Shown: positions 25,673 to 39,362, counted from the stretch's first letter. The stretch is 64,000 nucleotides of DNA from a virus (IMGVR_UViG_3300005758_000043), one strand, 5' to 3'. A program made the numbers and translations. The notes: generated from the letters alone by a model not told the origin.

Positions 25673-25675
25673 ATT

Positions 25676-27800: not shown

Positions 27801-27894
27801 AGTCAATCGGTTTTTGAGAAAATTTGGTGGGTTCCAGACTCGCAGCGACCGTTTCAGGCTACGATCCTGAATGCATGTCGATCTTTCCCCCATT

Positions 27895-28045
27895 AATTGG
27901 TGGACATGTTGGGAATCGAACCCAAAGAGTGCCGCCGCACTACTACCATTCAGCCCGTCGAGTGGACCGAGAGGGAATCGAACCCTCACCTACACCATGT
28001 CATGCCCAAAATTGGTGGACCGCAGGAGAGTCGAACTCCTGTCCT
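27895..28045 (-). pseudogene. Three tandem pseudo-tRNA 3'-end units (T-arm + acceptor 3' strand + A-CCA) lacking 5' halves
   Basis: Minus strand: TTGGG TTCGATT CCCAA CATGTCC A CCA; GAGGG TTCGATT CCCTC TCGGTCC A; AGGAG TTCGACT CTCCT GCGGTCC A CCA. No complementary 5' acceptor strands within 120 nt, even allowing G.U pairs. Confidence 0.4.
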
Positions 28046-28561
28046 CAACAAATTTGTATTAACCTTCAAACATGCTTATATTTGATTCGTCAAAGTGAAT
28101 CACTCTCAGGGACATTCGGTTCTTGGTAGTTCCTACTTTGTCCTCCACCAGTTAATTTTTAAACTGAAAAAATTAACAAACCCAGTTTTTGCTCGATTTG
28201 ATACTCAGAAAAGAGCGAGCGTTCTTCTGAGCGTGATACTTACGCAGCAGCGAGAGAAGCCTTGCGGGCAACTTTTGCAGACTTACGGAAGGTGACAACT
28301 TTGTTTTTGCCGTTTGTTTTTTTGAGCGGATTTTTAAGGAGCCATCCGATCAACTCCTACATGCTAGTTAATATTTCACTTATCAAGTCGAAACCAGAAG
28401 CGGCCCATTAATCTTTTAAAATAAGCATTTCATCATTACCGAGATCTACGACACCATCTGCTGATGCTTTTGCTTCTTTGAATTGATTGTAGCAAATTGC
28501 TACTGCTTGCTTATTATCTTTGTATTCTGAAGAAATCTGCGATACGCAGCGACTTACAAAT

Positions 28562-29191
28562 TCATTTCTTTTTTCTTTGTTTTTTGGAGTGGGAATTGGA
28601 GGCATTTTTATGTTCTTTCTTATGACAAATTACACATAATGTCAAGCCATTTTCTAAATTAAAACGCAAATCAGGATATTTAGACCATGGCTTTATATGA
28701 TGAGCATTCAATTTTCCACCTTTTTGTTCACAAAATTGACATGTATATTGATCTCTTTCAAAAACGTCTTTACGCCATGCAGAATATGGTCCTGATCGTG
28801 ATTGACTTTCATATCTTCCTATTTTTACTTTAGAACGATCTTGAATCCAATTAGGATGGTTTTCTCCTCTGATTTTTAATCCGCCTTTTTGTCGGGATTC
28901 TTTGGTTGCTTTTGGAGGTTTAGGAATTAAACCTTCGGCCATTTTTCGAGACAAACTAATGCCTGCTTTTTCGCGACTTTCTTTTGTCGGTATTGGGGGT
29001 ATAAAATTATTAATTTCTGCATTTTTAATTCCCATGCAAGTCCGAGAACAAAATCTTTTTCTTTCTAAATCTCTATTCAAATAGATTAATATTTTTTCAC
29101 CGCAATTTTCGCACTCTTTTTCTCCTTTAATTTTGTATCCTCGCGATGCGAAGTAATTTTCTGATTTATTTTTAGGAGATGGAATTGGCAT
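28562..29191 (-). CDS. HNH endonuclease
   Basis: C-terminal YTCQFCEQ ... AHHIKPWS ... NGLTLCVICH. Confidence 0.65.
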   Translation of the reverse strand: MPIPSPKNKSENYFASRGYKIKGEKECENCGEKILIYLNRDLERKRFCSRTCMGIKNAEINNFIPPIPTKESREKAGISLSRKMAEGLIPKPPKATKESRQKGGLKIRGENHPNWIQDRSKVKIGRYESQSRSGPYSAWRKDVFERDQYTCQFCEQKGGKLNAHHIKPWSKYPDLRFNLENGLTLCVICHKKEHKNASNSHSKKQRKKK

Positions 29192-29199
29192 ATTTTATA

Positions 29200-29712
29200 T
29201 TACACCAAACTCTTCAAATAATCAAGTGTTAAAAAACAAGTCCCAAATTTAGGGTAAACCACATCAACACAAGTATTCACATAACGAGGATCTTCTTTAC
29301 GCCACGGCCCCCAACCTTTCATGATTGTATGCATATGAACATGACCGTGAACGTTCAGTTTGCACTTGCGCAATTCATCAGGATGAATCGGGCAATGACT
29401 GAGCCACATTCCTTTGTATTTGATGATTCCGTGAATTTCTTCGAAAACATTCAATTGATCGCGCGTGTCAACCAAGTCATCATGATTGCCTTTAATCAAA
29501 ATCTTACGACCCTTCAAATTGCCAAACAAAGCTAAAGAATGGGAATCGAATGCTGCATCGCCAAGAACATAAACGACATCATTTTTGTTGATGCGCTTAG
29601 TCCAATCTTCTTGGATGAGGCGAGTATTATCTTCCGAAGAAGATACAAACTTGCGATATTTAGCAATGTTTTGATGTCCAAGATGTGGATCGCCAATGAC
29701 GTAAACGCTCAT
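29200..29712 (-). CDS. Calcineurin-like metallophosphoesterase
   Basis: Motifs GDPHLG, GDAAFD, GNHD and HGHVH. Confidence 0.6.
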   Translation of the reverse strand: MSVYVIGDPHLGHQNIAKYRKFVSSSEDNTRLIQEDWTKRINKNDVVYVLGDAAFDSHSLALFGNLKGRKILIKGNHDDLVDTRDQLNVFEEIHGIIKYKGMWLSHCPIHPDELRKCKLNVHGHVHMHTIMKGWGPWRKEDPRYVNTCVDVVYPKFGTCFLTLDYLKSLV

Positions 29713-29719
29713 GCACTTA

Positions 29720-30370
29720 TTATAGCTTCAATTTATTCCATGTAAAGCCTTTTTTGTAGAATTTTCCCTTTTTTTCAAGGCATTCGTCAAATAATGCCAT
29801 CAGAGGCATATTAATTGAATTAAAAGACGAAAGAGGAGCAATCTTTTTGGGCATTTTCCCCAAGAGAATTGGATGATAGATGGAGGTCGAGTCGATCCAT
29901 TTTTGTTTTAAATAAACGTATTGATAATAAAACAAATAAAGATTAGCTTGCTGCGCATACTTTTCGGTATCGAAAAGTTTCCATTTTTTACCAAACGCTA
30001 AAGATCTCTTTTCGCAATCATGTTCTAAAGCTATAACCTCCATTACTGCCGCCCAATTTTTGGGGCAAAGATTTTGCTTGTCTAAATGCTTCCAAAACTC
30101 ATATTCATCTTTCCAGACGGCATGCTTTTCGATGCATTGAGTCATGTGAGAAAATTCATGACAATAAACCTGCTCAAATAATGGATTTTTTTTGGCGACG
30201 GTAATTGTTTCTCCGTCGCACCATCCTGAACATTTAGAATCTCCGAGATCTATGTTTCGGCTATTGGCGATTACAATTTTCTTTTTATGTTGACAGAGAT
30301 AATCAACAGTCCAATCAAAGAACTTGCAAAAATTCTCACCACAATCTTTAAGAAAATTGAATTTCATCAA
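29720..30370 (-). CDS. hypothetical protein with HExxH motif
   Basis: YCHEFSHMTQ may be a zinc-metallopeptidase motif. Confidence 0.25.
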   Translation of the reverse strand: MMKFNFLKDCGENFCKFFDWTVDYLCQHKKKIVIANSRNIDLGDSKCSGWCDGETITVAKKNPLFEQVYCHEFSHMTQCIEKHAVWKDEYEFWKHLDKQNLCPKNWAAVMEVIALEHDCEKRSLAFGKKWKLFDTEKYAQQANLYLFYYQYVYLKQKWIDSTSIYHPILLGKMPKKIAPLSSFNSINMPLMALFDECLEKKGKFYKKGFTWNKLKL

Positions 30371-30658
30371 ATGATAGTAATGTTAATCTCGAATAAATCA
30401 AGGCAATTTATTAATCAATTTGATGATTCCAGCCACGAAATAATCATCTTCTTGAGCTTCCCGCACAAATTCTTCATCTGTCCAACGATGAGAAGTAGAA
30501 TATTCTACATCTTCCATCACTTGACCATTTTTAATAAAATAATCTTTTTTCCATTTAAATTTAGAATAAAAATACTCCAGAACAATTCTTTTCTGCTCTT
30601 GATCTGAAATTTGAACTTTTAAATGTTGCGTTGCATGTATTTCCATGATGTTTGAAAG

Positions 30659-30762
30659 TGGTAGGAGTGGTGGGAATCGAACCCACGTTACTAACGGCTT
30701 ATCTAGCCGTTGCTCTACGAGATTATAAGTTTCGCCCTATGGCCAACATTAGCAACACTCCC
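30659..30762 (-). ncRNA. Aberrant 104-nt tRNA-like gene with ~26-nt insertion in the D region
   Basis: Acceptor GGGAGTG/CACTCCT + A + CCA and T-arm GTGGG TTCGATT CCCAC are good. The anticodon-like hairpin ACGGC-UAGAUAA-GCCGT has A at position 33. The D region is 45 nt. Confidence 0.3.
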
Positions 30763-30808
30763 ATTATTTAATAGTTCACAAGTTGTTATGAATTGTGTAA
30801 TAATATAT

Positions 30809-31345
30809 ATGAACTATGAAAAATTGCAAGATTTAATTTCAAAAAATTTATCTACTTACCAAATAGCAAAAGAAATGGATTGTTCTCAAACAACTATTAG
30901 ATATTGGTTGAGAAAATTGGGGTTAAATACCAACAATCCTCCTCAAGCAAAAGATTTAAAAACATTATTAAATGGAAGAAGCTGCAAGTGCTGCTCAAAA
31001 CAATTAATTGGTCAACAAAAGTTTTATTGCTCAATTGAGTGTAAATCAAAAAATACTTATTATAGCCAGCCTAATACAAATGAACGTCAAAAAAACAAAG
31101 CACTTAGTAGAAAATTAGAATTAATAAAAATGGCTGGAGGAAAATGCTCCAATTGCGGTTACAAAAAAAATTCTTCTGCCCTGCAATTTCATCATAATGA
31201 CCCACAAAACAAATCTTTTTCATTAGACTCAAGAATTCTCTCCAATACAAATTGGGAATCAATTTTAAAAGAATTTAGAAAATGTAAATTACTATGCGCT
31301 AATTGCCATTTTGAAATTCATAATCCAGATAAAAATATGAAATAG
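30809..31345 (+). CDS. HNH endonuclease with N-terminal HTH
   Basis: STYQIAKEMDCSQTTIRYWLRKLGL is a helix-turn-helix. C-terminal FHHNDP ... CKLLCANCHFEIH is the HNH motif. Confidence 0.65.
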   Translation: MNYEKLQDLISKNLSTYQIAKEMDCSQTTIRYWLRKLGLNTNNPPQAKDLKTLLNGRSCKCCSKQLIGQQKFYCSIECKSKNTYYSQPNTNERQKNKALSRKLELIKMAGGKCSNCGYKKNSSALQFHHNDPQNKSFSLDSRILSNTNWESILKEFRKCKLLCANCHFEIHNPDKNMK

Positions 31346-31415
31346 GGGCGATGGGAGTTGAACCCATTATCTAACCTTTATGAGAGGCCCGCATTAACCG
31401 TTCTGCTACACCCCT
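31343..31415 (-). tRNA. tRNA-Met/Ile2 (CAU), CCA not encoded
   Basis: Acceptor AGGGGTG/CGCCCCT, anticodon loop CUCAUAA, T-loop TTCAACT. Confidence 0.55.
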
Positions 31416-31433
31416 TTTAATTATAATGAAAGT

Positions 31434-31511
31434 TGGTAGCTCCAGTGGGATTCGAACCCACACTTTACAGATTTTAAGTCTGTTGCCTGCTGCCAGTTGG
31501 GCTATGGAGCC
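31434..31511 (-). tRNA. class-I tRNA with anticodon UAA (Leu codon UUA)
   Basis: G1.U72 pair, A73, 3-bp D-stem with large D-loop, anticodon stem ACAGA/TCTGT with loop CUUAAAA, 5-nt variable loop. Confidence 0.55.
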
Positions 31512-31594
31512 GTTTATGAAATCATTCTACACCATTTTGCGTCATAGTCAATACAAATCTGTAGAATTTGACAGAAAAAAGTGTAACATATTTT

Positions 31595-32002
31595 ATGAAT
31601 AAAAAATCACTTGAACTAGACTTTTCTGAGTCTATCGCCGCAATGGGTCAATCTGGAATTGTTTCCAAGTTGATTCAATTACAGATTCAATTTAAAATTT
31701 TCCATTGGCAAACTTACTCATTTGCCCAGCATCATGCTTTTGGCGAGCTTTACAGCGCTTTGAGCGAGTCTATTGACGAGTTTGTGGAAACTTACCAAGG
31801 AGCTTATGGACGCTTCGATTTCAGCGGTGCTGGAATGGGTTTCGTCAACCTTGATTCTGCGGCATTCGTTTCGTTTTTAAATGATAATATTTCAGTGCTT
31901 CAATCTTGGGAGCGTTATTTTTCCAATACTGATCTTTTAAATATTAGGGATGAAATTCTTGGCTCTCTTAATAAGACCAAGTATCTTTTGACTTTAAACT
32001 GA
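31595..32002 (+). CDS. Dps/ferritin-like four-helix-bundle protein (putative)
   Basis: IFHWQTYSFAQHHAFGELY...E.IDEF resembles the Dps HW...H...E...D ferroxidase pattern. TTGACA-N15-TATTTT lies directly before the ATG, and a terminator lies at 32025-32060. Confidence 0.4.
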   Translation: MNKKSLELDFSESIAAMGQSGIVSKLIQLQIQFKIFHWQTYSFAQHHAFGELYSALSESIDEFVETYQGAYGRFDFSGAGMGFVNLDSAAFVSFLNDNISVLQSWERYFSNTDLLNIRDEILGSLNKTKYLLTLN

Positions 32003-32024
32003 TATTGACAATCAATCTATATAA

Positions 32025-32060
32025 AAAGACCGCCTTTTACAAGACGGTCTTTTTTTTATT
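32025..32060 (+). terminator. rho-independent terminator after the Dps-like gene
   Basis: Stem AAGACCG/CGGTCTT followed by T9. Confidence 0.65.
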
Positions 32061-32065
32061 TTAAA

Positions 32066-32142
32066 TGGTAGCTCGTTTCAGATTCGAACTGAAAACCACA
32101 ATATTTTGAGTATTGCCGCACTGCCAATTAGCGTAACGAGCC
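32066..32142 (-). tRNA. class-I tRNA with anticodon CAA (Leu codon UUG)
   Basis: Same architecture as 31434..31511; anticodon loop CUCAAAA; short variable loop. Confidence 0.55.
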
Positions 32143-32475
32143 ATTATTATTTTCGAAGATAATTTGAAGAGATTCAAGACGAGCGAGTTCTTCCTTTTTT
32201 TTAGTGATAGTTTTTGCTAGTTCTTGTTTAACATGGCGGCAAAAGCTCGCATCACATTCTTTAGTAATAGAGCTTCTTTTTGCAAGCGTGCCATCAGCTT
32301 TAGCAACAAGAACATATGTAAATAATGGAACGCGAGGACTGCCGCCTATTTCGTAGCGTGGGGTTATCTCTGTAATTTTATGATACCCACTGTGATAAGC
32401 GGTAACAATATCACCAACATTGATTGTTTCATCATAAGTTAACTCAACGCCATTTGAATCCTTGATTGTCGTCAT
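32128..32475 (-). CDS. hypothetical protein
   Basis: ORF between two tRNA genes. The track start (32547) overlaps a tRNA, so the internal Met is likely. Confidence 0.25.
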   Translation of the reverse strand: MTTIKDSNGVELTYDETINVGDIVTAYHSGYHKITEITPRYEIGGSPRVPLFTYVLVAKADGTLAKRSSITKECDASFCRHVKQELAKTITKKKEELARLESLQIIFENNNGSLR

Positions 32476-32517
32476 GCTTTGATCATGCCAAAAATAATTT
32501 ACAAAGCAAGCGAAAAA

Positions 32518-32595
32518 TGGTAGCTGCGGTCGGATTCGAACCGACACTGTTTTGATTCTAAGTCAAACGTCTCCTACCAGTTGGACTACGCAGCC
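32518..32595 (-). tRNA. class-I tRNA with anticodon UAG (Leu codon CUA)
   Basis: Anticodon stem TTTGA/TCAAA with loop CUUAGAA; G1.U72; A73. Confidence 0.55.
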
Positions 32596-32765
32596 ATTAT
32601 AAAATACAAAAAAATCAGATCAGTCTGGGATTTCACGCCGTTCCTAGAAAATGCATACTCACCAGAGCCTGTTGGGAATCGAACCTTACATCTTCCGTTG
32701 TCTATCCAAACACTCACGGTTAATTACTCCGTCAAAGTTGATCCTATTTCATGAAAAGTTTCTCT

Positions 32766-32990
32766 TTAAGAGAGAGTTAAAAGGTAATCAATAATATCTT
32801 TTGCGCCAGTCAAGCGCTTATCATCCGCAATTAAAGTTGGAACTGTTCTTACGTTATTGTCTTTACAATACTCTTGATTTTCATCTGCGTCAATCAAAAT
32901 AATATCTTTTGGATTTTTCGCTAAAAAGTCTTTGATTATTTTGCACGGTCCACACCATGAGGTGGTTATTAATGTGTTTTTATTTGCCAT
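32766..32990 (-). CDS. Thioredoxin-fold protein (CGPC active site)
   Basis: WCGPCK active-site motif; the likely start is MANKNT, which avoids the neighbouring tRNA. Confidence 0.55.
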   Translation of the reverse strand: MANKNTLITTSWCGPCKIIKDFLAKNPKDIILIDADENQEYCKDNNVRTVPTLIADDKRLTGAKDIIDYLLTLS

Positions 32991-33004
32991 TTGAATTTGT
33001 AGAT

Positions 33005-33082
33005 TGGTGCGTCTGGTGGGATTCGAACCCACACTGTATAGACCCTTAATCTATTGCCTGCTGCCAGTTGGGCTACAGACGC
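33005..33082 (-). tRNA. class-I tRNA with anticodon AAG (Leu codon CUU)
   Basis: Close paralogue of 31434..31511 (shared D-arm TTGCCTGCTGCCAGTTGGGCTA); anticodon loop UUAAGGG. Confidence 0.5.
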
Positions 33083-33090
33083 ATGAAAAT

Positions 33091-33165
33091 TGGTAGGGAA
33101 TAACGGATTCGAACCGCTGATCTCCTCGGTGTAAACGAGTTGCTTTACCACTCAGCTAATTCCCC
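33091..33165 (-). tRNA. tRNA-Val (UAC)
   Basis: Anticodon loop UUUACAC; acceptor AGGGAAT with its complement. Confidence 0.55.
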
Positions 33166-33209
33166 TTTGTAAAATTTCTATTTTCATTACAACAAGTGTA
33201 ATTACTTTT

Positions 33210-33671
33210 ATGGATTTAAAATACGATTTATCAGAAATGCAAAGACTTAAAAATCTCGGTCACAATCATAAAGAAATCTCCGAAATAATAGGATGTTCTT
33301 ATTATACTGTTATCTATCATTTAAACCCTGAACGAAAAACCAAACAGAGAGCGTGGTTTAAAGATAGCTATCATAATCAGCACTTATTAAGTAAAATGAC
33401 AGCTTTCAAAAAATACGGCAACACGATTGACTTTTCTTTAGCTGATTTGTTGGAGCATATCGGAGATAATCCGACATGTTACTTTACAAGTCAACCAATA
33501 AATTTATCTATTCCCTCTTCTTATTCACTAGACCATAAGATTCCAAAGAGCCGAGGAGGATCTTCAAATCTAGATAACTTAGTCTTGACAACTTCCGCCG
33601 TGAATAAAGCCAAACATAATCTGTTGCCAGATGAATTTATTCAGCTTTGTCGCAGCGTAGCCCAAAATTAA
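33210..33671 (+). CDS. HNH endonuclease with HTH
   Basis: LDHKIPKSRGGSSNLDNL ... N is the HNH motif. Confidence 0.6.
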   Translation: MDLKYDLSEMQRLKNLGHNHKEISEIIGCSYYTVIYHLNPERKTKQRAWFKDSYHNQHLLSKMTAFKKYGNTIDFSLADLLEHIGDNPTCYFTSQPINLSIPSSYSLDHKIPKSRGGSSNLDNLVLTTSAVNKAKHNLLPDEFIQLCRSVAQN

Positions 33672-33867
33672 AAATAAATCAAAAGTGTGCTACTACGCCA
33701 AAAGGAGAATATGCCTTACCGTTTCGGGGGTGCCTTATCACTATCCACATTTTCCCCACAGCACATCACTAATATATGCCACTTTACGGCCCGACATTAT
33801 TTAGCATTTCGCACGGATTGGGTGCTTCGTCCTACTCTTTAAAGGTCACGATAAATCGTGAGGATTC

Positions 33868-34287
33868 TCAATCCGTGGCTGCTTCTAAGCCAACCTCCTT
33901 TTGATTTTGAGAATGTCTTATCCTGTGACAGTTTGCACAAAGAAGAACACATTTGTCGAGTTCTTTCTTCACAGAATCAAATTTTTTTGCTTGTTTGCCA
34001 ATTGAAAAATCTTTTTTGCTAGGATCTAAATGGTGAAAATCATAAATAGATGGAATATCTCTTGATTCTCCACAATCAGCGCATTTTCCACCAAGATATT
34101 CTATAGCTTTTCTTTTTAAAGCCCTTCTTCGCTCGGCTGAAGTTTCTAATCTACAAGATTTGCAATAGCAATCCCAAGTATCATAAACTATACCATTATT
34201 ATAAGCTTTTTGAGGATAGAAGTCTTTAGTAGATTTCACCTCTCCACAATTCTTGCATTTTTTTTCTTTTAAGTCTTTTTTTGACAT
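33868..34287 (-). CDS. HNH endonuclease
   Basis: CKNCG ... YDFHHLDPSKKDF ... CVLLCANCHRIRH. Paralogous to 37879..38238 and 30809..31345. Confidence 0.65.
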   Translation of the reverse strand: MSKKDLKEKKCKNCGEVKSTKDFYPQKAYNNGIVYDTWDCYCKSCRLETSAERRRALKRKAIEYLGGKCADCGESRDIPSIYDFHHLDPSKKDFSIGKQAKKFDSVKKELDKCVLLCANCHRIRHSQNQKEVGLEAATD

Positions 34288-34325
34288 ATACTCATTATTA
34301 CACGAATTTCATGAGTAATAGAAAT

Positions 34326-34401
34326 TGGACGCGCCGACTGGACTTGAACCAGCATGAATCTGCTTTGCAGGCAGTGAGATAGCCATTCTCCCCACGACGC
34401 G
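34326..34401 (-). tRNA. tRNA-Cys (GCA)
   Basis: Acceptor CGCGTCG/CGGCGCG, D-stem GGGA/TCTC, anticodon loop CUGCAAA, T-loop TTCAAGT. Confidence 0.6.
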
Positions 34402-34409
34402 ATAAAAAT

Positions 34410-34483
34410 TGGCATACCGTGCAGGAATCGAACCCGCGTTTTCTGTTTTGGAGGCAGTAGTCTTACCATTAGACGAACGGCAT
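34410..34483 (-). tRNA. tRNA-Trp (CCA)
   Basis: Anticodon loop CUCCAAA; D-arm GTCT/AGAC; the anticodon stem has mismatches. Confidence 0.5.
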
Positions 34484-34626
34484 GTTTGAAATTGGTGCGG
34501 TGGCGAATCGTCACTTACGCCTTTGCTGGGGACTCCGAATTACCCCGTAATCTCCTTCTTCTTGGGCATTCCGAGATTTAATGCCTTTTAATTCGGTTTT
34601 ATTTTGACTAGACCGCATTGAAAATT

Positions 34627-34701
34627 TGGTGGAGCTAGAGAGATTCGAACTCTCAACCTTATCCTTGCAAAGGATCTGCGCTACCATTGCGCCATAGCCC
34701 C
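34627..34701 (-). tRNA. tRNA-Ala (UGC)
   Basis: Acceptor GGGGCTA/TAGCTCC, anticodon loop UUUGCAA. Confidence 0.65.
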
Positions 34702-34908
34702 AAATTAGACAGTTGGTTACTCCGAAGAGTAGAGCATATGATCTACGTTTTGTCAAACAAAAAACTCCCATATATTCACCAATAACGCTACTGCTATCGC
34801 GGGGATTACCCACAGTGTTTTGCGGAACAACCCGCTACTCTTCGCCTATTTTATTCACCTATGGCTAGTTGGTTGCCACTCCAACACGGCTTTTTAAAGT
34901 AAAAAAAA

Positions 34909-34984
34909 TGGTGGACACAACGAGAATTGAACTCGCCACATCGTCATTGCAAGTGACAATCGCCCCCAAGGAACATGTGCGCCC
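34909..34984 (-). tRNA. tRNA-Ala (UGC), second copy with G.U-rich acceptor
   Basis: Anticodon stem TGTCA/TGACG with loop CUUGCAA, T-loop TTCAATT, acceptor GGGCGCA/TGTGTCC (two G.U pairs), weak D-stem. Confidence 0.45.
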
Positions 34985-35074
34985 ATATATTGCCGTGAGA
35001 ACCCTAAGCCCGATCTCTCGCATCATAATCAGTAATCAGGCGCGTTACTAACCTCTTGTGCTTTACGGCGAAAT

Positions 35075-35153
35075 TGGCGGTCCATAGGGGGAACGATCCC
35101 CTTCCTCAAGATTGACAATCTAGTGATGCTTCCTTTACACTAATGGACCTTAA
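35075..35153 (-). tRNA. tRNA-Asp-like (GUC) with A54 T-loop
   Basis: Acceptor GGTCCAT/ATGGACC is perfect. The anticodon loop UUGUCAA sits in an imperfect stem. The T-loop is ATCGTTC. Confidence 0.4.
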
Positions 35154-35166
35154 AATTTATTAAAAC

Positions 35167-35241
35167 TGGTAGGCAGTGGGGGAATTGAACCCGCCGTCTC
35201 TTGATTCGTATTCAAGTATTCTTCCGTTATACTAACCGCCC
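35167..35241 (-). tRNA. tRNA-Arg (ACG)
   Basis: Anticodon stem CTTGA/TCAAG with loop AUACGAA; acceptor with two G.U pairs. Confidence 0.5.
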
Positions 35242-35254
35242 ATTGAAAATTGTT

Positions 35255-35329
35255 TGGAGGCCCGATGGAGAGTCGAACTCCAGTATCACCCATACCAAGG
35301 GTGCATAATAACCGTTATATGATCAGGCC
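35255..35329 (-). tRNA. tRNA-Thr (GGU)
   Basis: Anticodon stem CACCC/GGGTG with loop UUGGUAU; T-arm TGGAG/CTCCA. Confidence 0.65.
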
Positions 35330-35343
35330 GTTTTTTTGAAATC

Positions 35344-35407
35344 TGGTGCCTAGCTGCGGATTCGAACCGCATTAACATTTCCGCGATTAGCGCGTGGATC
35401 ACCAAGC
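35344..35407 (-). ncRNA. Minimal 64-nt tRNA-like element without a D-arm
   Basis: T-arm TGCGG TTCGAAT CCGCA, acceptor 3' strand GCTAGGC-A-CCA pairing with GCTTGGT (three G.U pairs), hairpin CGCG-CUAAU-CGCG with a 5-nt loop. Confidence 0.2.
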
Positions 35408-35430
35408 ATCCGATGCCGAGGCAAATAAAT

Positions 35431-35508
35431 TGGTTAGGTATATGGGATTTGAACCCATAATCTCTACATCCCAAATGTAGCGCGATAGCCAAGTTACGCT
35501 AATACCTA
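35431..35508 (-). tRNA. tRNA-Pro (UGG), class I
   Basis: Anticodon stem CTACA/TGTAG with loop UUUGGGA; acceptor ATACCTA/TAGGTAT. Confidence 0.65.
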
Positions 35509-35516
35509 TTTAAAAT

Positions 35517-35614
35517 TGGTCGCGCAGGTGGGATTCGAACCCACGACGGTAAACACTCTTGTCCCCGCTACCTGATTCCAAGTCAGGCTCCTTACCAAGC
35601 TAGGCAACTGCACG
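35517..35614 (-). tRNA. class-II (long variable arm, ~98 nt) tRNA carrying anticodon UGG
   Basis: Perfect anticodon stem CCTGA/TCAGG with loop CUUGGAA, A73, ~26-nt variable region, Ser/Leu-like D-arm. Confidence 0.45.
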
Positions 35615-35624
35615 ATATGAAAAT

Positions 35625-35699
35625 TGGTGCGTGTAGTCAGAATCGAACTGACATATCAACGTTGGCAACGTTGTATAATAACCATTATACGATACACGC
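35625..35699 (-). tRNA. tRNA-Gly (GCC)
   Basis: Anticodon stem CAACG/CGTTG with loop UUGCCAA; acceptor GCGTGTA with its complement. Confidence 0.7.
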
Positions 35700-36099
35700 T
35701 TTAAAAACACTTCCCGAATTACGCTTGCATCAGAGGCGCGGGAAGTCAATCGAAAATTGTTATCTAAGCCCTGAGATTACAGGCTAGGGCGACCAGTCTT
35801 TCATAAGATTATTAAGCAGCATTCCAAGCCACTATTTCCTTACTTATCCACTACCTCTCGATAGTATCCAGTCATCGACGCCATTTTATGAATCGCTGGC
35901 ATTTGCGATTTACCGTTTACTCTACTCGATCATTTCTAGAACCTCGGAGGATGGCCGTCCTGCAAGATTTCCTTCTCTGATCAAACGCCTTGTGCTTTGC
36001 GAGCCAAGGTTCGCACAGAATTGCTTTCGCTTCTGTCTTAGTCGATTTTCGAGCGTTCGGGGTTACGTCTTTTGCTTTTAATATTTATACGTTGTTTAA

Positions 36100-36200
36100 T
36101 ATGCAACTGCCTTTACCCATTTGGCTACTCCCCCCGTCAAAGCATAAGCTGGATGCTCTGATGGCGGGGGAGGCTGGACTCGAACCAGCAAAATAAATGG
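36100..36200 (-). ncRNA. Permuted tRNA-like element with closed acceptor stem (Y-RNA-type tRNA mimic?)
   Basis: Minus-strand order: T-arm GCTGG TTCGAGT CCAGC, then acceptor 3' strand CTCCCCC-G-CCA. A 26-nt linker with hairpin GCAT-CCAGCTT-ATGC follows. Then the perfectly complementary acceptor 5' strand GGGGGAG, TA, and D-arm GCC-AAATGGGTAAA-GGC. It ends with AGTTGC ATATTAA ACAAC. Confidence 0.35.
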
Positions 36201-36230
36201 AAACCTACGTCAATGTGCGCAACCACGCTG

Positions 36231-36250
36231 CTCTCAAAATCTCTCAAAAT
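36231..36250. repeat. 10-bp tandem direct repeat CTCTCAAAAT x2
   Basis: Exact duplication in the 1-kb non-coding region. Confidence 0.5.
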
Positions 36251-36727
36251 CAAGAATACAACACATCAACTAGAATCAGTATCGCTACTTTTTCATCGCA
36301 GTCAAGACTACCCTCGATTTGACTCTCAGGCAACCTCTCAGCATGCCATTCGCCTTTGTATCTCTACTCTGACTTATGACTACCCTTTGAGATTCATGCT
36401 TTCAGACCCATTTGAGTTTTCCTTTCAGAACCAGCTACATCGTTGACCTCACTGTTTTACTCTCTTCGACCCGTAGGCTTCAACAACATAAGTTTTAATG
36501 GCTTATATTGTCGTATCTCTCGGCTTGCTTGGTGGGCTAACTTAGCGAACTAAATTAGTGGGCGGTGTAGGAACCTTATCCCTTTCCCAGAATCGCTTCT
36601 GGATTATCCTGTAATGCCCCCAAGCGGGCAAATTTTTTATGATATTAAAGAACTTTTTACGAAGGAAACTCTTTGTTTTCCCAAGATCGCTTTGAAGAAC
36701 TCTTAGTTCGTCGCGGCGATGTGATTG

Positions 36728-36755
36728 ATTATGCAGATATTTCTGATTTTGTCAA
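36728..36755 (-). promoter_or_regulatory. promoter TTGACA-N16-CATAAT firing into the 1-kb non-coding region and downstream tRNAs
   Basis: No ORF downstream; it reads into 35700-36714. Confidence 0.45.
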
Positions 36756-36772
36756 CCTGTTTTTTGAAAATT

Positions 36773-36847
36773 TGGTAGGCGCGGCAGGGATTGAACCTGC
36801 GTCTCCACCTTATCAAGGAGGTGCTACAACCACTCAGCTACGCGCCT
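36773..36847 (-). tRNA. tRNA-Ile (GAU)
   Basis: Acceptor AGGCGCG/CGCGCCT, D-arm GCTGAGTGGTTGTAGC, anticodon loop UUGAUAA. Confidence 0.65.
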
Positions 36848-36906
36848 ATTAAGCACCAAACTGGTTCGCATATTAAGAGGCGTTTTGGTGACTGTCAAGA
36901 AAAAAT

Positions 36907-36981
36907 TGGTTGGACTAGAGAATTTCGAAATCTCGACTTCACGCTTATCGGGCGTGCGCTCTGCCTCTGAGCTATAGTCCA
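36907..36981 (-). tRNA. tRNA with anticodon GAU and C33 (Ile-like variant)
   Basis: Good cloverleaf (acceptor TGGACTA/TAGTCCA, D GCTC/GAGC, anticodon stem CACGC/GCGTG); the loop CCGAUAA lacks U33. Confidence 0.45.
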
Positions 36982-37052
36982 ATTATTATAGGGAATGTTC
37001 TGATTTGGTATTTTTCGCGCTCTAACCACTGAGCTACGCTCTCACCTATGGG

Positions 37053-37130
37053 CAGTTGCGGCAGGATTCGAACCTGCGCCTCGTCTTTAGAATAGAAGTA
37101 ACCAACTCATGTCACCACTATAAATCTTTT
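37053..37130 (-). pseudogene. tRNA-Arg (UCU)-like fragment without a matching 5' acceptor/D-arm
   Basis: T-arm GCAGG TTCGAAT CCTGC, 3' end CGCAACT-G-CC, anticodon stem CTTCT/AGACG with loop AUUCUAA. Immediately downstream on the minus strand is an orphan tRNA 5' half (GAGCG TA GCTC AGTGGTTA GAGC). Confidence 0.3.
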
Positions 37131-37135
37131 AAAAA

Positions 37136-37209
37136 TGGAGGCCCATGTCAGAATCGAACTGACATCTCCCACTTACAAGGAGGGTGCATCGCCATAATGC
37201 TTATGGACC
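37136..37209 (-). tRNA. tRNA-Thr (UGU)
   Basis: Acceptor GGTCCAT/ATGGGCC, D GCAT/ATGC, anticodon loop CUUGUAA. Confidence 0.6.
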
Positions 37210-37305
37210 GTAAAAATTGGCTGTGAGACAGGGACTTTCACCACTCCGATCATTCTTGCAAGAGAAATTGTTGATCGTGCTATAATTCGCTTCCCACAAT
37301 TAAAT

Positions 37306-37381
37306 TGGCTCCCAAGGGTGGGATCGAACCACCGACATACTGGTTAACAGCCAGTCGCAACTACCGCTGTGCTACTTGGGA
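37306..37381 (-). tRNA. tRNA-Asn (GUU)
   Basis: Anticodon stem ACTGG/CCAGT with loop CUGUUAA, T-loop TTCGATC, perfect acceptor. Confidence 0.7.
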
Positions 37382-37389
37382 TTTGAAAA

Positions 37390-37466
37390 TGGTGCAACAA
37401 GTGGGAGTTGAACCCACACGATAGCTGAGTAAGAGTCAGATGCCCGTCCGCTGTGGCTTTTGTTGC
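37390..37466 (-). tRNA. tRNA-Lys (CUU)
   Basis: Anticodon loop CUCUUAC; acceptor GCAACAA with its complement. Confidence 0.6.
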
Positions 37467-37657
37467 ATAAAAATTGGTCAGGGCGCTGGGTAACGATCCC
37501 AGTTCTGCAAGTTAAAAGCCTGCTGCTTCACCATTAAAGCTTCACCCCGTTTGATATTCATCACATGTGATTTGCCCGCTATCATAGTCTGCCGAAGCAT
37601 GTGACTTACTGTTGCGTTCACTATAGGCTCTTTTCAGATGAATGTCAATTGAAAAAT

Positions 37658-37734
37658 TGGCCCCTGTCGCCCGTTTCGATCAGGCATCCTACTCGTCTTC
37701 AGCGAATCGTGCAGACCACTTACACCAGACAGGG
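37658..37734 (-). tRNA. tRNA-Phe (GAA) with A54 T-loop
   Basis: Perfect 7-bp acceptor CCCTGTC/GACAGGG, anticodon loop CUGAAGA, T-loop ATCGAAA. Confidence 0.55.
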
Positions 37735-37743
37735 ATTGAAAAT

Positions 37744-37833
37744 TGGCGGGTGCGGTAGGATTTGAACCCACGGGCAGCTTTCACCACCTTCGGTTTTCAA
37801 GACCGACGCCATAAACCACTCGACCACACACCC
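37744..37833 (-). tRNA. tRNA-Ser (UGA), class II
   Basis: Anticodon stem TCGGT/ACCGA with loop CUUGAAA, long variable arm, T-loop TTCAAAT. Confidence 0.65.
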
Positions 37834-37878
37834 ATAAAAAATTAGTCTTTTTGCTACTAAGCAAGTGTAAATACTTAT

Positions 37879-38238
37879 ATGAAAATTTGTAGCACTTGTA
37901 AAGAAGAAAAATCAGATAATTGCTTCTACAGCAAAGGAAAAGAAAATCGAACTAATTCTCTTTGTAAAAAATGTTTTAATAACTACTGCCGCGACCGCTG
38001 GATTCAGCGCAAACTCGACATGATCGACCATAAGGGATCTGAATGCGAAGATTGTAAATTGGTTGCGACAAATCAAAATTATTATCTTTTCGATTTCCAC
38101 CACAAAGATCCGAAACAAAAAGATATGGTTTGGGAAAGAATGAGAAAGATTTCTTTATCAAGTTGTATTGAAGAAGTAAATAAATGCGCTTTGCTTTGTT
38201 GCATGTGTCATAGAACAAGGCATTTTTTTGAAAAATAA
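37879..38238 (+). CDS. HNH endonuclease
   Basis: CSTCK ... FDFHHKDPKQKD ... CALLCCMCHRTRH. Confidence 0.65.
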   Translation: MKICSTCKEEKSDNCFYSKGKENRTNSLCKKCFNNYCRDRWIQRKLDMIDHKGSECEDCKLVATNQNYYLFDFHHKDPKQKDMVWERMRKISLSSCIEEVNKCALLCCMCHRTRHFFEK

Positions 38239-38239
38239 A

Positions 38240-38317
38240 TGGCGGGGCTGGCAGGATTCGAACCTGCATCGTTCCCTTACGGTGCCACTGCTTAGAAGGC
38301 AGTTCCGATACAGCCCC
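38240..38317 (-). ncRNA. tRNA-like gene with perfect acceptor and T-arm but aberrant core (anticodon-like UCU hairpin displaced)
   Basis: Acceptor GGGGCTG/CAGCCCC-G-CCA; T-arm GCAGG TTCGAAT CCTGC. A perfect hairpin ACTGC-CUUCUAA-GCAGT lies only 7 nt after the acceptor, followed by 19 extra nt before the T-arm. Confidence 0.3.
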
Positions 38318-38328
38318 ATTAAAAAAAT

Positions 38329-38420
38329 TGGCGGAAGCGGTAGGATTTGAACCTACGGGCCACCATTTGGCGACCTCTATCTTTCCAAGATAGTGCAATT
38401 GACCGCTCTGCCACACTTCC
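38329..38420 (-). tRNA. tRNA-Ser (GGA), class II
   Basis: The 5' half GGAAGTGTGGCAGAGCGGT is nearly identical to bacterial tRNA-Ser. Anticodon stem CTATC/GATAG with loop UUGGAAA. Confidence 0.7.
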
Positions 38421-38429
38421 ATAAAAAAT

Positions 38430-38521
38430 TGGTGGGTTCTAGGCAGAATCGAACTCCTTGCCCTAATGGGAGGAAGGTTACAGCTTCCTAACAGCACCAG
38501 CTATTCTTATTGTTAGAACCC
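38430..38521 (-). tRNA. tRNA-Tyr (GUA), class II
   Basis: Perfect acceptor GGGTTCT/AGAACCC, anticodon stem GGAAG/CTTCC with loop CUGUAAC, variable-arm hairpin CCCATTAGGG. Confidence 0.5.
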
Positions 38522-38522
38522 T

Positions 38523-38897
38523 TTAAATTTTAAATTTTTCAAATTTAGTTCCCAAGTTAATAGTATTTTTATTGCATTCGCAACTAGGTATTAAATAACT
38601 ATTATTTGTATTTAAAACATAAACGAAAATATAATCGCAAGAATTTTTGTCAAAGTATTTCGCATAGTTTCTACTTTGATTTCCACCAGTAGATCGCAAT
38701 CCAACCGAGGGTATGCCATATTGAGAAACAAATGATGTTGTTTTTACTTGAATTTTTTGAAGACTTTTATCTTCAAATTCGACAACTAAATCATAAGGTT
38801 GGGAATCGTTAATTGGAATAGAAACTGTTAATAAACGATTAGTAAAATATGCAATTGCAACTCCAAGCCCAATATTTCCTTTTTGTTTTGTATTCAC
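38523..38897 (-). CDS. hypothetical protein (possible PD-(D/E)xK-like nuclease)
   Basis: DLVVEFEDK...K resembles a D-x(n)-E-x-K motif; weak evidence. Confidence 0.25.
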   Translation of the reverse strand: MNTKQKGNIGLGVAIAYFTNRLLTVSIPINDSQPYDLVVEFEDKSLQKIQVKTTSFVSQYGIPSVGLRSTGGNQSRNYAKYFDKNSCDYIFVYVLNTNNSYLIPSCECNKNTINLGTKFEKFKI

Positions 38898-39192
38898 AAC
38901 AGTATATTACACCGTTTTAATAAAAAATCAAATAAAACTACAAACAAAACGCTTTTAACGACATTTAAGCTATCAGCCCTGTTAGATAGGCGGGCCTTCC
39001 ACGACCAGCCCTGCGGAAGCTGGATCTTTTTGTTTATAAATTGGTCGCTCGCCTTTGGTTTTTCACCTGTAGGCTACCCGTGATCGCGACATGCACAGGC
39101 TCCAACGAGCGTTTGAAATTGCACGGTCTTTTCTTTTACATCAGGCGACCGAAACCCTGATCTTCATGGTTATGTTTACACTAACAATAAAT

Positions 39193-39268: not shown

Positions 39269-39362
39269 AATTGAAAATCATTTGAGGCAACAAGCGACAA
39301 GGGGTTTATTGGTTTCAAGTAATAGTTGAAGAAGTATCCCTTATCTAACAGCACTCAAAAAT

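What the first reader, a model, noticed from the sequence alone, without database searches (positions are those of the whole stretch)
31434..35614. Four class-I (short variable arm) tRNAs carry leucine anticodons, while a class-II tRNA carries the proline anticodon UGG
By manual folding, the tRNAs at 31434, 32066, 32518 and 33005 are paralogues. All four have G1.U72, A73, a 3-bp D-stem, a UGGCAG-containing D-loop and a 5-nt variable loop. Their anticodons are UAA, CAA, UAG and AAG, all Leu codon readers, which in bacteria belong to long-arm class-II tRNAs.

Conversely, the 98-nt tRNA at 35517-35614 has a Ser/Leu-like long variable region and A73 but the anticodon UGG. A normal class-I tRNA-Pro(UGG) is also present at 35431.

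No canonical class-II tRNA-Leu was found in the array. Either these are structurally unusual but correctly charged tRNAs, or they are identity-swapped tRNAs capable of mistranslation or recoding.
Basis: seen in the sequence. Interest (0 to 1): 0.7.

Follow-up and report, generated by a model that had tools for sequence, protein, structure and literature searches.

The report
Short-arm leucine tRNAs, extra-arm proline tRNA
A phage tRNA gene cluster carries four leucine tRNAs that lack the usual long extra arm and one proline tRNA that has gained such an arm, but both keep the features their normal charging enzymes read, so they look like unusual-shaped ordinary tRNAs rather than code-changing ones.

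Summary
ARAGORN and the Rfam tRNA model find four 77-78-nt tRNAs with anticodons UAA, CAA, UAG and AAG, and a 98-nt tRNA(UGG) with a 7-bp extra arm. All lie on the minus strand, and the window has no long-arm tRNA-Leu.

The identity-swap reading is not supported.

**Leucine tRNAs.** They belong to a large existing family of short-arm ("type I") tRNA-Leu:
- It occurs in 380 GenBank phage records, including three annotated in Felix O1, and in at least 119 IMG/VR contigs and at least 120 bacterial genomes.
- Streptomyces tRNA-Leu(CAA) has an identical D-arm, and the S. coelicolor type I tRNA-Leu(CAA) is leucylated in vitro.
- The D-arm motif co-occurs only with leucine anticodons, apart from one call with a 4-base anticodon.
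- A73, A14, A15-U48 and G18G19 are kept.

**The 98-nt tRNA.** It has the E. coli ProRS determinants: C1-G72, A73, G35G36, A37, G15-C48 and U17a. Its D-arm is proline-type. Three homologues change the acceptor stem by compensatory substitutions yet keep C1-G72.

**Decoding.** In RtcB, leucine and proline codons sit at conserved Leu and Pro positions, so decoding is standard.

Charging itself is inferred, not shown. One caveat: E. coli LeuRS failed to charge the Streptomyces type I tRNA.

Interest is moderate. A side observation, a long-arm tRNA(UAU) with a GAU-containing arm loop, may deserve more attention.

The parts
31434..31511 (-). Type I (short variable loop) tRNA-Leu, anticodon UAA. G1.U72, A73, A14, A15-U48, variable loop AAAGU, encoded CCA.
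   Evidence: ARAGORN; Rfam RF00005 62.9 bits; orthologue in L021 with a compensatory 30-40 change.
32066..32142 (-). Type I tRNA-Leu, anticodon CAA. G1.U72, A73, U13.U22 mismatch, variable loop UGGUU.
   Evidence: ARAGORN; Rfam 49.4 bits when searched alone (missed by the speed filters); L021 orthologue with compensatory 7-66 and 49-65 changes.
32518..32595 (-). Type I tRNA-Leu, anticodon UAG. G1.U72, A73, variable loop ACAGU.
   Evidence: ARAGORN; Rfam 61.5 bits; closely resembles L004 tRNA-Leu(UAA).
33005..33082 (-). Type I tRNA-Leu, anticodon AAG (A34, possibly read as inosine). G1-C72, A73, G37, variable loop ACAGU.
   Evidence: ARAGORN; Rfam 53.7 bits; L021 orthologue with compensatory acceptor and T-stem changes.
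35517..35614 (-). 98-nt tRNA-Pro(UGG) with a class II-like extra arm. C1-G72, A73, G35 G36, A37, G15-C48, U17a, G49.
   Evidence: ARAGORN; Rfam 49.5 bits; homologues L021, L141 and L142; D-arm nearest neighbours are tRNA-Pro.
35546..35568 (-). The extra (variable) arm of the 98-nt tRNA-Pro: 7-bp stem GCGGGGA/UUACCGU and loop CAAGAGUGU.
   Evidence: ARAGORN drawing. RNAalifold on four homologues keeps the helix, with one double compensatory pair (G.U to C-G) and one G-C to G.U change.
35431..35508 (-). Class I tRNA-Pro(UGG) with an atypical U1-A72 (A73). Orthologue of the L004 class I tRNA-Pro, which has C1-G72.
   Evidence: ARAGORN; Rfam 62.8 bits.
30662..30762 (-).
   Evidence: Rfam 38.5 bits; sequence read; ARAGORN misses it at default settings; family analysis.

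Best explanation
The four short tRNAs are genuine leucine tRNAs of the 'type I' (short variable loop) kind. This family is widespread in phages and in many bacteria. I infer that the host leucyl-tRNA synthetase charges them with leucine. [quoted passage not shown] Together the four anticodons cover all six leucine codons. They match the phage's preferred TTA, TTG and CTT codons, so they act as an ordinary codon supply for phage translation under the standard code.

The 98-nt tRNA is a proline tRNA that has acquired a hairpin in its variable region. It keeps the E. coli ProRS determinants listed in the Giege and Eriani review, so I infer it is charged with proline.

Shown here: the structures, family membership, conservation and covariation, presence of the determinants, and standard codon use. 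Inferred: the charging itself, and any selective reason for losing or gaining the arm.
For: **Structure.**

**Family size.**
- blastn of Leu(UAA) hits 380 phage records, 299 of them nearly full length. These include three annotated 78-79-nt tRNA-Leu in Felix O1, 76-nt tRNA-Leu in Mycobacterium prophages, and Vibrio T5-like phages.
- The D-arm motif TAGYCCAACNGGYAGSAGRC occurs in at least 119 IMG/VR contigs and at least 120 bacterial genome contigs.

**Coupling to leucine.** The motif does not include the anticodon. Even so, 122 of 123 viral and 113 of 113 bacterial motif-bearing tRNAs have leucine anticodons, and all are 75-80 nt. All six anticodon types appear in the viral set and five of the six in the bacterial set.

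**Covariation.** In 172 distinct short tRNA-Leu, acceptor and anticodon stems are 86-100% paired (all but pair 27-43 at 94% or more) with 4-6 pair types, against about 40-70% in shuffles. Pair 13-22 is unpaired in 96%. The variable loop is 5 nt in 126, with consensus ACAGU.

**Determinants.** A73 in 145 of 146, A15-U48 in 138 of 146, A14 in 143 of 146.

**Link to a validated member.** Streptomyces tRNA-Leu(CAA) (L293, L315) has exactly the D-arm of the window's Leu(UAA) and Leu(AAG). The S. coelicolor type I tRNA-Leu(CAA) is leucylated by its own LeuRS and by human mitochondrial LeuRS (PMC6614811).

**LeuRS rules.** A73, A15-U48, G18G19 and A20a are essential. The long arm and anticodon are dispensable, and arm-less variants stay active (PMC9976931).

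**Proline tRNA.**
- The determinants G72, A73, G35, G36, A37, G15-C48, U17a and G49 listed in PMC9976931 are all present (sequence).
- 53 of 56 phage tRNA-Pro have C1-G72/A73, which is rare in other isotypes.
- The D-arm's nearest neighbours are tRNA-Pro.
- Across four homologues the acceptor stem shows three double compensatory pairs while C1-G72/A73 stays invariant, and the extra arm is kept with one compensatory pair.

**Standard code, tested in RtcB.**
- All 14 Leu codons in columns at least 90% conserved align with Leu.
- All 11 CCN codons align with majority-Pro columns.
- In reverse, 14 of 14 conserved-Leu and 8 of 9 conserved-Pro columns use the standard codons.
- The Leu anticodon set matches phage codon use.
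Against: - No aminoacylation or expression data exist for these molecules.
- E. coli LeuRS and one Streptomyces LeuRS failed to leucylate the S. coelicolor type I tRNA-Leu(CAA) in vitro (PMC6614811). Charging of a type I tRNA-Leu is therefore not automatic for every bacterial LeuRS, and the host of this phage is unknown.
- The D-arm sequence is not specifically closest to class II tRNA-Leu. Its nearest neighbours are generic class I tRNAs.
- D-arm statistics are partly circular, because loci were collected with a D-arm motif. A73, U48, loop length and anticodon are independent of that motif.
- For the proline tRNA, a long extra arm is the main SerRS determinant, so some serylation cannot be excluded. 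G2-C71 is present in the window copy.
- Only four homologues in two arm variants support the arm helix.
- The codon test covers one gene. It detects recoding, not low-level mistranslation.
Confidence: 0.75

Rival explanations
1. Identity-swapped or mistranslating tRNAs. The short tRNAs with Leu anticodons would be charged with another amino acid. Alternatively, or in addition, SerRS, LeuRS or TyrRS would charge the 98-nt tRNA(UGG) through its long arm and A73, so that leucine or proline codons are partly or wholly reassigned during infection.
For: - The tRNA class and the anticodon are mismatched relative to the textbook rule.
- Precedents exist for class II tRNAs with non-cognate anticodons that mistranslate: nematode nev-tRNAs (PMC3333845, PMC4033280), allo-tRNAs (PMC5389517), and tRNA-Ser with a UGG anticodon in yeast (PMC9976931).
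- E. coli LeuRS did not charge one type I tRNA-Leu.
- The window copy of the 98-nt tRNA has G2-C71 and C11-G24, as tRNA-Ser does.
Against: **Short Leu tRNAs.**
- The scaffold carries up to six different Leu anticodons and nothing else. Only an anticodon-blind synthetase fits that pattern.
- AlaRS needs G3.U70, which is absent.
- SerRS needs a long arm, which is absent.

**98-nt tRNA.**
- It has C1-G72 and A73. Bacterial tRNA-Ser has G1-C72 and G73.
- It has G35, not the U35 of tRNA-Tyr.
- Its D-arm is proline-type.
- C1-G72 is retained through compensatory evolution of the rest of the acceptor stem, whereas G2-C71 is not kept in L021.

**Codon use.** RtcB shows standard Leu and Pro codon use.
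Confidence: 0.07
2. Non-translational tRNA-like RNAs. The odd-shaped molecules would be decoys or sponges for host tRNA-targeting nucleases or other tRNA-binding defence proteins, or decaying pseudogenes, rather than working adaptors.
For: - The array also contains several degenerate tRNA-like elements with ACCA ends.
- T5 encodes annotated 'tRNA-like stable RNAs with unknown functions' in its tRNA region.
- The phage invests in RNA repair and quality control: RtcB, a Ro/TROVE protein and a tmRNA.
- Phage tRNAs are known to counter tRNA-cleaving defences (PMC10264068; PMC13056530).
Against: - All four Leu tRNAs and the 98-nt tRNA have complete cloverleaves. They have canonical 7-nt anticodon loops with U33 and a purine at 37, canonical T-loops and an encoded CCA.
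- Anticodon-stem covariation is strong across the family.
- The anticodon set exactly covers the Leu codon box and matches codon usage.
- No class II tRNA-Leu is present to do the job instead.
Confidence: 0.08
3. The extra arm of the 98-nt tRNA is an intervening sequence. It would be removed after transcription, for example by an endonuclease, with the halves rejoined by the phage RtcB ligase, so that the mature tRNA-Pro is class I.
For: - The phage encodes RtcB, the tRNA-splicing-type ligase.
- Relatives carry similar insertions in other class I tRNAs: Gln, Asn and Met in L004, and Lys in L045.
Against: - The insertion forms a plain hairpin without a bulge-helix-bulge motif.
- The hairpin is conserved with compensatory changes and a conserved AAGAG loop, as expected for a retained structural arm.
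- No splicing endonuclease was seen among the window proteins scanned.
- No group I intron or other Rfam family matches it.
Confidence: 0.05

Closest known systems
Type I tRNA-Leu(CAA) of Streptomyces coelicolor (Nucleic Acids Res 2019, PMC6614811)
   Same: - Cytoplasmic bacterial-type tRNA with a Leu anticodon and a 5-nt variable loop: ACAGC there, ACAGU or AAAGU here.
- A73, A14-U8 and G18G19 are present.
- The tRNA-Leu(CAA) of two other Streptomyces species (L293, L315) has a D-arm identical to the window's Leu(UAA) and Leu(AAG).
- Shown to be leucylated by a bacterial LeuRS.
   Different: - Here the tRNAs are phage-encoded and present as a full set of four anticodons with no type II partner in the window. 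S. coelicolor has one type I tRNA among type II isoacceptors.
- Charging is untested here.
- E. coli LeuRS did not charge the Streptomyces tRNA, so host range matters.
Annotated short tRNA-Leu genes of cultured phages (Felix O1/Felixounavirus, Mycobacterium phages such as Wildcat and Rey, Vibrio T5-like phages)
   Same: 78-80% identity to the window's Leu(UAA), the same length class (74-79 nt), the same D-arm type, A73 and frequent G1.U72. The tRNAscan isotype models in the Sf14 study score the Felix-like ones best as Leu (PMC12482277).
   Different: These phages are unrelated, and each carries two or three such tRNAs. None of the papers I could search comments on the missing arm. T5 itself has a normal 85-nt tRNA-Leu.
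Human mitochondrial tRNA-Leu(UUR)
   Same: A short-arm tRNA-Leu whose identity rests on A73 and A14 (PMC9976931).
   Different: It is organellar, structurally floppy and has a dedicated LeuRS. ScoLeuRS does not charge it.
Nematode nev-tRNAs and bacterial allo-tRNAs (class II-shaped tRNAs with non-Ser/Leu anticodons)
   Same: A long variable arm combined with an anticodon of a class I amino acid, as in the 98-nt tRNA(UGG).
   Different: Those keep Leu or Ser identity, and allo-tRNAs also have 8/4 or 9/3 acceptor branches, so they insert the 'wrong' amino acid. The tRNA here has a canonical 7/5 branch and the ProRS determinants, and so looks like a tRNA-Pro with an added arm.
Canonical bacterial tRNA-Pro (E. 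coli proK/L/M type)
   Same: C1-G72, A73, G35 G36, A37, G15-C48, U17a and G49.
   Different: It has a 23-nt hairpin in place of the 4-5-nt variable loop. I found this only in four contigs: the window, L021, L141 and L142.

Membership tests
Type I (short variable loop) bacterial/phage tRNA-Leu | Leucine anticodon on a tRNA with a 4-7-nt variable loop and no extra arm | tested here: met
   ARAGORN and Rfam: 77-78 nt, 5-nt variable loops, anticodons UAA, CAA, UAG and AAG.
Type I (short variable loop) bacterial/phage tRNA-Leu | Family D-arm: 3-bp D-stem with 13-22 unpaired and a 9-10-nt D-loop of the form AAYNGGYAG | tested here: met
   All four show it. 13-22 is unpaired in 96% of 172 family members. 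The D-arm of Leu(UAA) and Leu(AAG) is identical to that of Streptomyces tRNA-Leu(CAA).
Type I (short variable loop) bacterial/phage tRNA-Leu | LeuRS determinants A73, A14, A15-U48, G18G19, A20a and U54-A58 | tested here: met
   Read directly from the four sequences. The determinant list comes from PMC9976931 and PMC6614811.
Type I (short variable loop) bacterial/phage tRNA-Leu | Accepts leucine from LeuRS | not testable with these tools
   Known only for the S. coelicolor member (PMC6614811). E. coli LeuRS was negative on that member.
Canonical bacterial class II tRNA-Leu | Long variable arm (stem-loop of more than 10 nt) | tested here: not met
   Variable loops are 5 nt. No class II tRNA-Leu is present in the window.
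Bacterial tRNA-Pro (ProRS substrate) | C1-G72 and A73 | tested here: met
   The 98-nt tRNA has CGUGCAG...CUGCGCG-A-CCA. These positions are invariant in L021, L141 and L142 despite three compensatory acceptor changes. 53 of 56 phage tRNA-Pro share them.
Bacterial tRNA-Pro (ProRS substrate) | Anticodon G35 G36 with A37 or G37, plus G15-C48, U17a and G49 | tested here: met
   The anticodon loop is CUUGGAA, the D-loop is AGCUUGGUAA, there is a C before the T-stem, and the T-stem begins with G. The determinant list comes from PMC9976931.
Bacterial tRNA-Pro (ProRS substrate) | Class I architecture (short variable loop) | tested here: not met
   A 23-nt extra arm is present.
Bacterial tRNA-Pro (ProRS substrate) | Accepts proline | not testable with these tools
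   Needs an aminoacylation assay.
tRNA-Ser-type class II tRNAs with foreign anticodons (allo-tRNA-like or nev-tRNA-like mistranslators) | Ser or Leu identity set: G1-C72, G2-C71 and G73 for Ser, or a Leu-type core; body derived from tRNA-Ser or tRNA-Leu | tested here: not met
   C1-G72 and A73 are present. G2-C71 is not conserved (U-A in L021). The D-arm's nearest neighbours are tRNA-Pro.
Bacterial class II tRNA-Tyr | Anticodon G34 U35 A36 with A73 and a long arm | tested here: not met
   The anticodon is UGG. A73 and the long arm are present, but U35, the strong TyrRS determinant (my own knowledge, not checked in a paper), is G.

The most novel reading that the evidence does not exclude
Loss and gain of the variable arm in phage tRNAs may be adaptive remodelling rather than drift.

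- Short-arm tRNA-Leu could let phages keep leucine decoding when host factors act on class II tRNAs.
- Added arms could be functional modules.

The clearest hint for the second idea is the long-arm tRNA(UAU) family, of which window 30662-30762 is a variant. Its extra-arm loop almost always displays GAU, the anticodon of the major tRNA-Ile, in a 7-nt loop: CAGAUUA in the family and UAGAUAA here. That loop might serve as an anticodon-loop mimic for IleRS or for a modification enzyme. By analogy, the arm on tRNA-Pro could be a binding handle for a phage or host protein.
Probability: 0.15. Interest if true: 0.8.

Novelty: new variant of a known kind. Interest (0 to 1): 0.4.

Why it matters
**Leucine half.** On its own this is a new member of a known kind. 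Still, it shows that type I tRNA-Leu, described in the literature as a Streptomyces curiosity, is a very large family in phages and bacteria. It also raises a testable question. Enterobacterial phages such as Felix O1 carry three of these tRNAs, yet E. coli LeuRS failed on the Streptomyces one. Either phage versions are tuned to be substrates, or something else is going on.

**Proline half.** This part, together with the extra arms on Gln, Asn, Met, Lys and Ile(UAU) tRNAs in related contigs, shows that the rule 'long arm = Ser, Leu or Tyr' is not strict in phage tRNA arrays. That matters in three ways:
- Annotation pipelines can miss such tRNAs or mislabel their isotype; ARAGORN at default settings missed the window's 101-nt tRNA(UAU).
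- It bears on how synthetases tolerate or use extra arms.
- It is relevant to engineering orthogonal tRNAs.

None of this implies a changed genetic code in this phage.

Tried and rejected
- **Megablast of 30600-36000 against GenBank phages:** no match. The phage has no close cultured relative.
- **blastn of Leu(UAA) against E. coli genomes:** no match. I could not show descent from an E. coli tRNA-Leu this way.
- **D-arm nearest-neighbour test for the Leu tRNAs:** uninformative. The nearest neighbours are generic class I tRNAs (Asn, Ala, Lys, Gln), not class II tRNA-Leu. I therefore dropped the claim that they are recent arm-deletion derivatives of class II tRNA-Leu.
- **Candidate class II tRNA-Leu(UAA) at 40874-40968 from relaxed ARAGORN:** rejected. 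It lies inside an ORF, is AT-rich, has no T-loop or CCA, and gets no Rfam hit.
- **G1.U72 as a leucine hallmark:** rejected. It is also common in phage Val, Glu, Arg and Lys tRNAs.
- **In vivo evidence from mycobacteriophage Gaia,** which replaces the host tRNA-Leu-CAA (PMC10865867): Gaia was not among the blast hits, so whether its tRNA is type I remains unchecked.
- **Evasion of Schlafen-type nucleases that prefer type II tRNAs:** the one characterised bacterial Schlafen cuts Lys, Met, Ala and other tRNAs in the anticodon arm and shows no type II preference (PMC13056530). This remains pure speculation.
- **Relatives found through the Ro/TROVE protein:** of 17 loci, only one (L004) carries the tRNA array.
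- **Splicing or bulge-helix-bulge reading of the extra arm:** not supported by the fold.
- **A phage-encoded synthetase:** none among 30 window proteins scanned with Pfam.

Full report
**What is there**

The window is part of a large tailed phage. It encodes:
- lambda-like tail proteins L and J, and a lysozyme;
- ThyX, UvdE, and nicotinamide phosphoribosyltransferase (NAMPT) and PRPP-synthetase homologues;
- a Mom-like protein and several HNH endonucleases;
- an RtcB RNA ligase (16383-17615), a Ro/TROVE protein (25794-27344) and a tmRNA (28013-28406).

A minus-strand tRNA array runs from 25415 to 39662, with 30 tRNAs by ARAGORN and two more by Rfam only. It is interspersed with HNH genes and tRNA-like RNAs. 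That layout resembles the tRNA region of T5, but there is no close cultured relative.

**Checking the observation**

There are four tRNAs of 77-78 nt (CCA included) with anticodons UAA, CAA, UAG and AAG at 31434, 32066, 32518 and 33005. Each has a 3-bp D-stem, a 5-nt variable loop and A73. There is also a 98-nt tRNA(UGG) at 35517-35614 with a 7-bp extra arm, next to a 78-nt tRNA(UGG).

No long-arm tRNA-Leu exists in the window. A relaxed-threshold candidate at 40874-40968 is a false positive inside an ORF.

Small corrections: everything is on the minus strand. G1.U72 and the UGGCAG motif each hold for three of the four Leu tRNAs. The 'normal' tRNA-Pro has an abnormal U1-A72.

**The leucine tRNAs belong to a large, already existing family**

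- blastn of Leu(UAA) finds 380 GenBank phage records. They include three annotated 78-79-nt tRNA-Leu in Felix O1, 74-76-nt tRNA-Leu in many mycobacteriophages, and T5-like Vibrio phages.
- A D-arm motif taken from the window tRNAs occurs in at least 119 IMG/VR contigs and at least 120 bacterial species genomes. The bacteria are mostly Actinomycetota, but also Acidobacteriota, Planctomycetota, Verrucomicrobiota and Alphaproteobacteria.
- The motif does not contain the anticodon. Even so, 122 of 123 viral and 113 of 113 bacterial motif-bearing tRNAs carry leucine anticodons, and all are 75-80 nt. All six anticodon types appear in the viral set and five of the six in the bacterial set.
- Across 172 distinct short tRNA-Leu, the acceptor and anticodon stems are 86-100% paired (all but pair 27-43 at 94% or more) with 4-6 pair types per position, against about 40-70% after shuffling. 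Pair 13-22 is almost never formed. The variable loop is usually 5 nt, with consensus ACAGU.
- Syntenic relatives (L021 with all four Leu tRNAs, L004 with one) differ from the window copies by compensatory changes.

These are functional tRNAs under selection, not decayed genes.

**Which enzyme charges them (inferred)**

The members of one scaffold differ at anticodon positions 34 and 36. Only an anticodon-blind synthetase can serve them all, which leaves LeuRS, SerRS or AlaRS. They lack G3.U70 (AlaRS) and a long arm (SerRS).

They keep what bacterial LeuRS reads: A73, A14, the A15-U48 pair, G18G19, A20a and U54-A58. The Giege and Eriani review states that in E. coli neither the anticodon nor the long arm is needed, and that arm-less variants remain active (PMC9976931).

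The closest characterised molecule is the S. coelicolor type I tRNA-Leu(CAA). Its variable loop is ACAGC, and its own LeuRS and human mitochondrial LeuRS both leucylate it (PMC6614811). In the Streptomyces genomes I fetched, tRNA-Leu(CAA) has a D-arm identical to the window's Leu(UAA) and Leu(AAG).

The main caveat comes from the same paper: E. coli LeuRS and one Streptomyces LeuRS did not charge that tRNA. Competence therefore depends on the host enzyme, and the host here is unknown. No synthetase gene is present among the 30 window proteins scanned.

**The 98-nt tRNA is a proline tRNA with an added arm**

- It has C1-G72, A73, G35 G36, A37, G15-C48, U17a and G49. This is the E. coli ProRS determinant list in the review.
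- In my sample of phage tRNAs, 53 of 56 tRNA-Pro have C1-G72/A73, a combination rare in other isotypes.
- The nearest neighbours of its D-arm are tRNA-Pro.
- I found three homologues: one viral contig (L021) and two metagenome contigs (L141, L142). The body is identical in all. The acceptor stem has three double compensatory pair changes, yet C1-G72/A73 never changes.
- The extra arm exists in two sequence variants that keep the helix, with one double compensatory pair, one G-C to G.U change and a shared AAGAG loop.
- It does not have the G1-C72/G73 of bacterial tRNA-Ser or the U35 of tRNA-Tyr.

What the arm does is unknown. Related contigs carry comparable arms on Gln, Asn, Met and Lys tRNAs, so this lineage tolerates or exploits such insertions.

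**No sign of recoding**

I aligned the phage RtcB with 24 homologues at 65-73% identity. Several come from megabase bacterial contigs.
- Every Leu codon in a column at least 90% conserved (14) faces Leu.
- All 11 CCN codons face majority-Pro columns.
- In reverse, 14 of 14 conserved-Leu and 8 of 9 conserved-Pro columns use the standard codons.
- Leucine and proline frequencies are ordinary, at 79 and 38 per 1000 codons.
- The favoured Leu codons TTA, TTG and CTT match the anticodons UAA, CAA and AAG.

This test rules out wholesale reassignment. It does not rule out low-level mistranslation.

**Comparison with what is known, and novelty**

I found no paper in the searchable library that discusses short-arm tRNA-Leu in phages. 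The Sf14 study tabulates Felix-like tRNA-Leu scoring best as Leu but never mentions the variable arm. Standard reviews still state that the long arm is specific to Ser, Leu and bacterial Tyr (PMC4033280).

The leucine half is therefore a new member of a known, if under-appreciated, kind. The extra-arm tRNA-Pro is a new variant of a known kind. It differs from nev-tRNAs and allo-tRNAs in that its identity elements match its anticodon.

**Verdict**

The 'unusual shape, normal charging' reading is favoured, with confidence about 0.75. The identity-swap reading is unlikely, at about 0.07. Interest is moderate (0.4).

The most intriguing lead is peripheral to the finding: the long-arm tRNA(UAU) family with a GAU-bearing arm loop, described under the things noticed in passing.

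Noticed in passing
window 30662-30762 (-); also L029, L056, L085, L114, L138 and the loci: A 101-nt tRNA found by Rfam only (38.5 bits). It has anticodon loop CUUAUAA (UAU, reading AUA), G1.U72/A73, and an extra arm whose 7-nt loop is UAGAUAA. Long-arm tRNA(UAU) genes of 88-96 nt occur in at least 120 IMG/VR contigs. In 101 of 112 distinct sequences the arm contains GAU, most often as loop CAGAUUA, where about 27% would be expected by chance. The sample is partly enriched by an earlier CAGATTA-based scan. The arm stems covary, with 27 different 4-bp stems. GAU is the anticodon of the major tRNA-Ile, so the arm may mimic an anticodon loop. Lactobacillus phage LpeD has an unannotated copy. I found no description in the searchable literature.
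   Followed up: partly
window 38243-38317 (-); L004 about 4305-4395: An Rfam-only tRNA hit (43.4 bits), conserved in the relative L004. It has an anticodon-like loop CUUCUAA (UCU, Arg), only about 7 nt where the D-arm should be, and an extra hairpin before the T-arm. It is possibly a D-arm-less tRNA or a tRNA-like RNA.
   Followed up: partly
window 35348-35425, 34909-34982, about 34490-34610, 39363-39439 and 27898-28007 (all -): Several tRNA-like elements with acceptor/T-arm modules and ACCA ends lie between the regular tRNAs. One is a G3.U70 Ala(UGC)-like copy with a poor D-arm. Another is a 110-nt mini tmRNA-like element directly downstream of the tmRNA (20.7 bits to RF00023). They recall the 'tRNA-like stable RNAs of unknown function' annotated in the T5 tRNA region. 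Since a Ro/TROVE protein is encoded nearby, some could be Y-RNA-like partners.
   Followed up: partly
window 16383-17615 (-), 25794-27344 (-), 28013-28406 (-): The phage encodes an RtcB RNA ligase, a Ro60-like TROVE protein, and a tmRNA with tag GKNKVVTFRKSAKVARKASLAAA. Together with more than 30 tRNAs, this forms an RNA repair, quality-control and translation-rescue module.
   Followed up: partly
L004 3537-3630, 4595-4682, 5512-5601; L045 13764-13851; L141 945-1033; L142 900-988: Relatives and unrelated viral contigs carry normally class I tRNAs with long extra arms: Met 94 nt, Gln(UUG) 88 nt, Asn(GUU) 90 nt, Lys(CUU) 88 nt, and Ile(GAU/AAU) 89 nt. The L004 Gln and L045 Lys arms share the sequence GUAGCGAAAGCUCA, a GNRA hairpin, which suggests a recurrent or mobile arm module.
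   Followed up: no
window 35431-35508 (-): The class I tRNA-Pro(UGG) has U1-A72 instead of the near-universal C1-G72 of bacterial and phage tRNA-Pro. Its orthologue in L004 has C1-G72. It may be a weakened copy now that the 98-nt tRNA is present, or the host may have a ProRS that ignores the acceptor stem.
   Followed up: partly
window 33005-33082 (-) and 35167-35241 (-): The anticodon of tRNA-Leu is AAG, with A34, alongside tRNA-Arg(ACG). A34 in tRNA-Leu implies either inosine formation by a TadA-type deaminase with relaxed specificity or direct A34 decoding of CUU, the phage's preferred CUN codon. A recent paper reports tRNA-Leu(IAG) in Lactobacillales (PMC13249217).
   Followed up: no
genome loci L263-L382: Type I tRNA-Leu genes, mostly UAG and CAA, are common in bacterial chromosomes. 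In 66 of 120 loci the gene is the only tRNA within 8 kb. They are especially frequent in Micromonospora, Nocardiopsis, Actinoplanes, Pseudonocardia and Streptomyces, which is far beyond the single S. coelicolor case discussed in the literature I could read.
   Followed up: partly
window 33700-33890 (-) and 34730-34900 (-): GC-rich, apparently structured non-coding stretches lie next to HNH endonuclease genes inside the tRNA array, and nothing in Rfam matches them. They could be intron-like or other stable RNAs.
   Followed up: no
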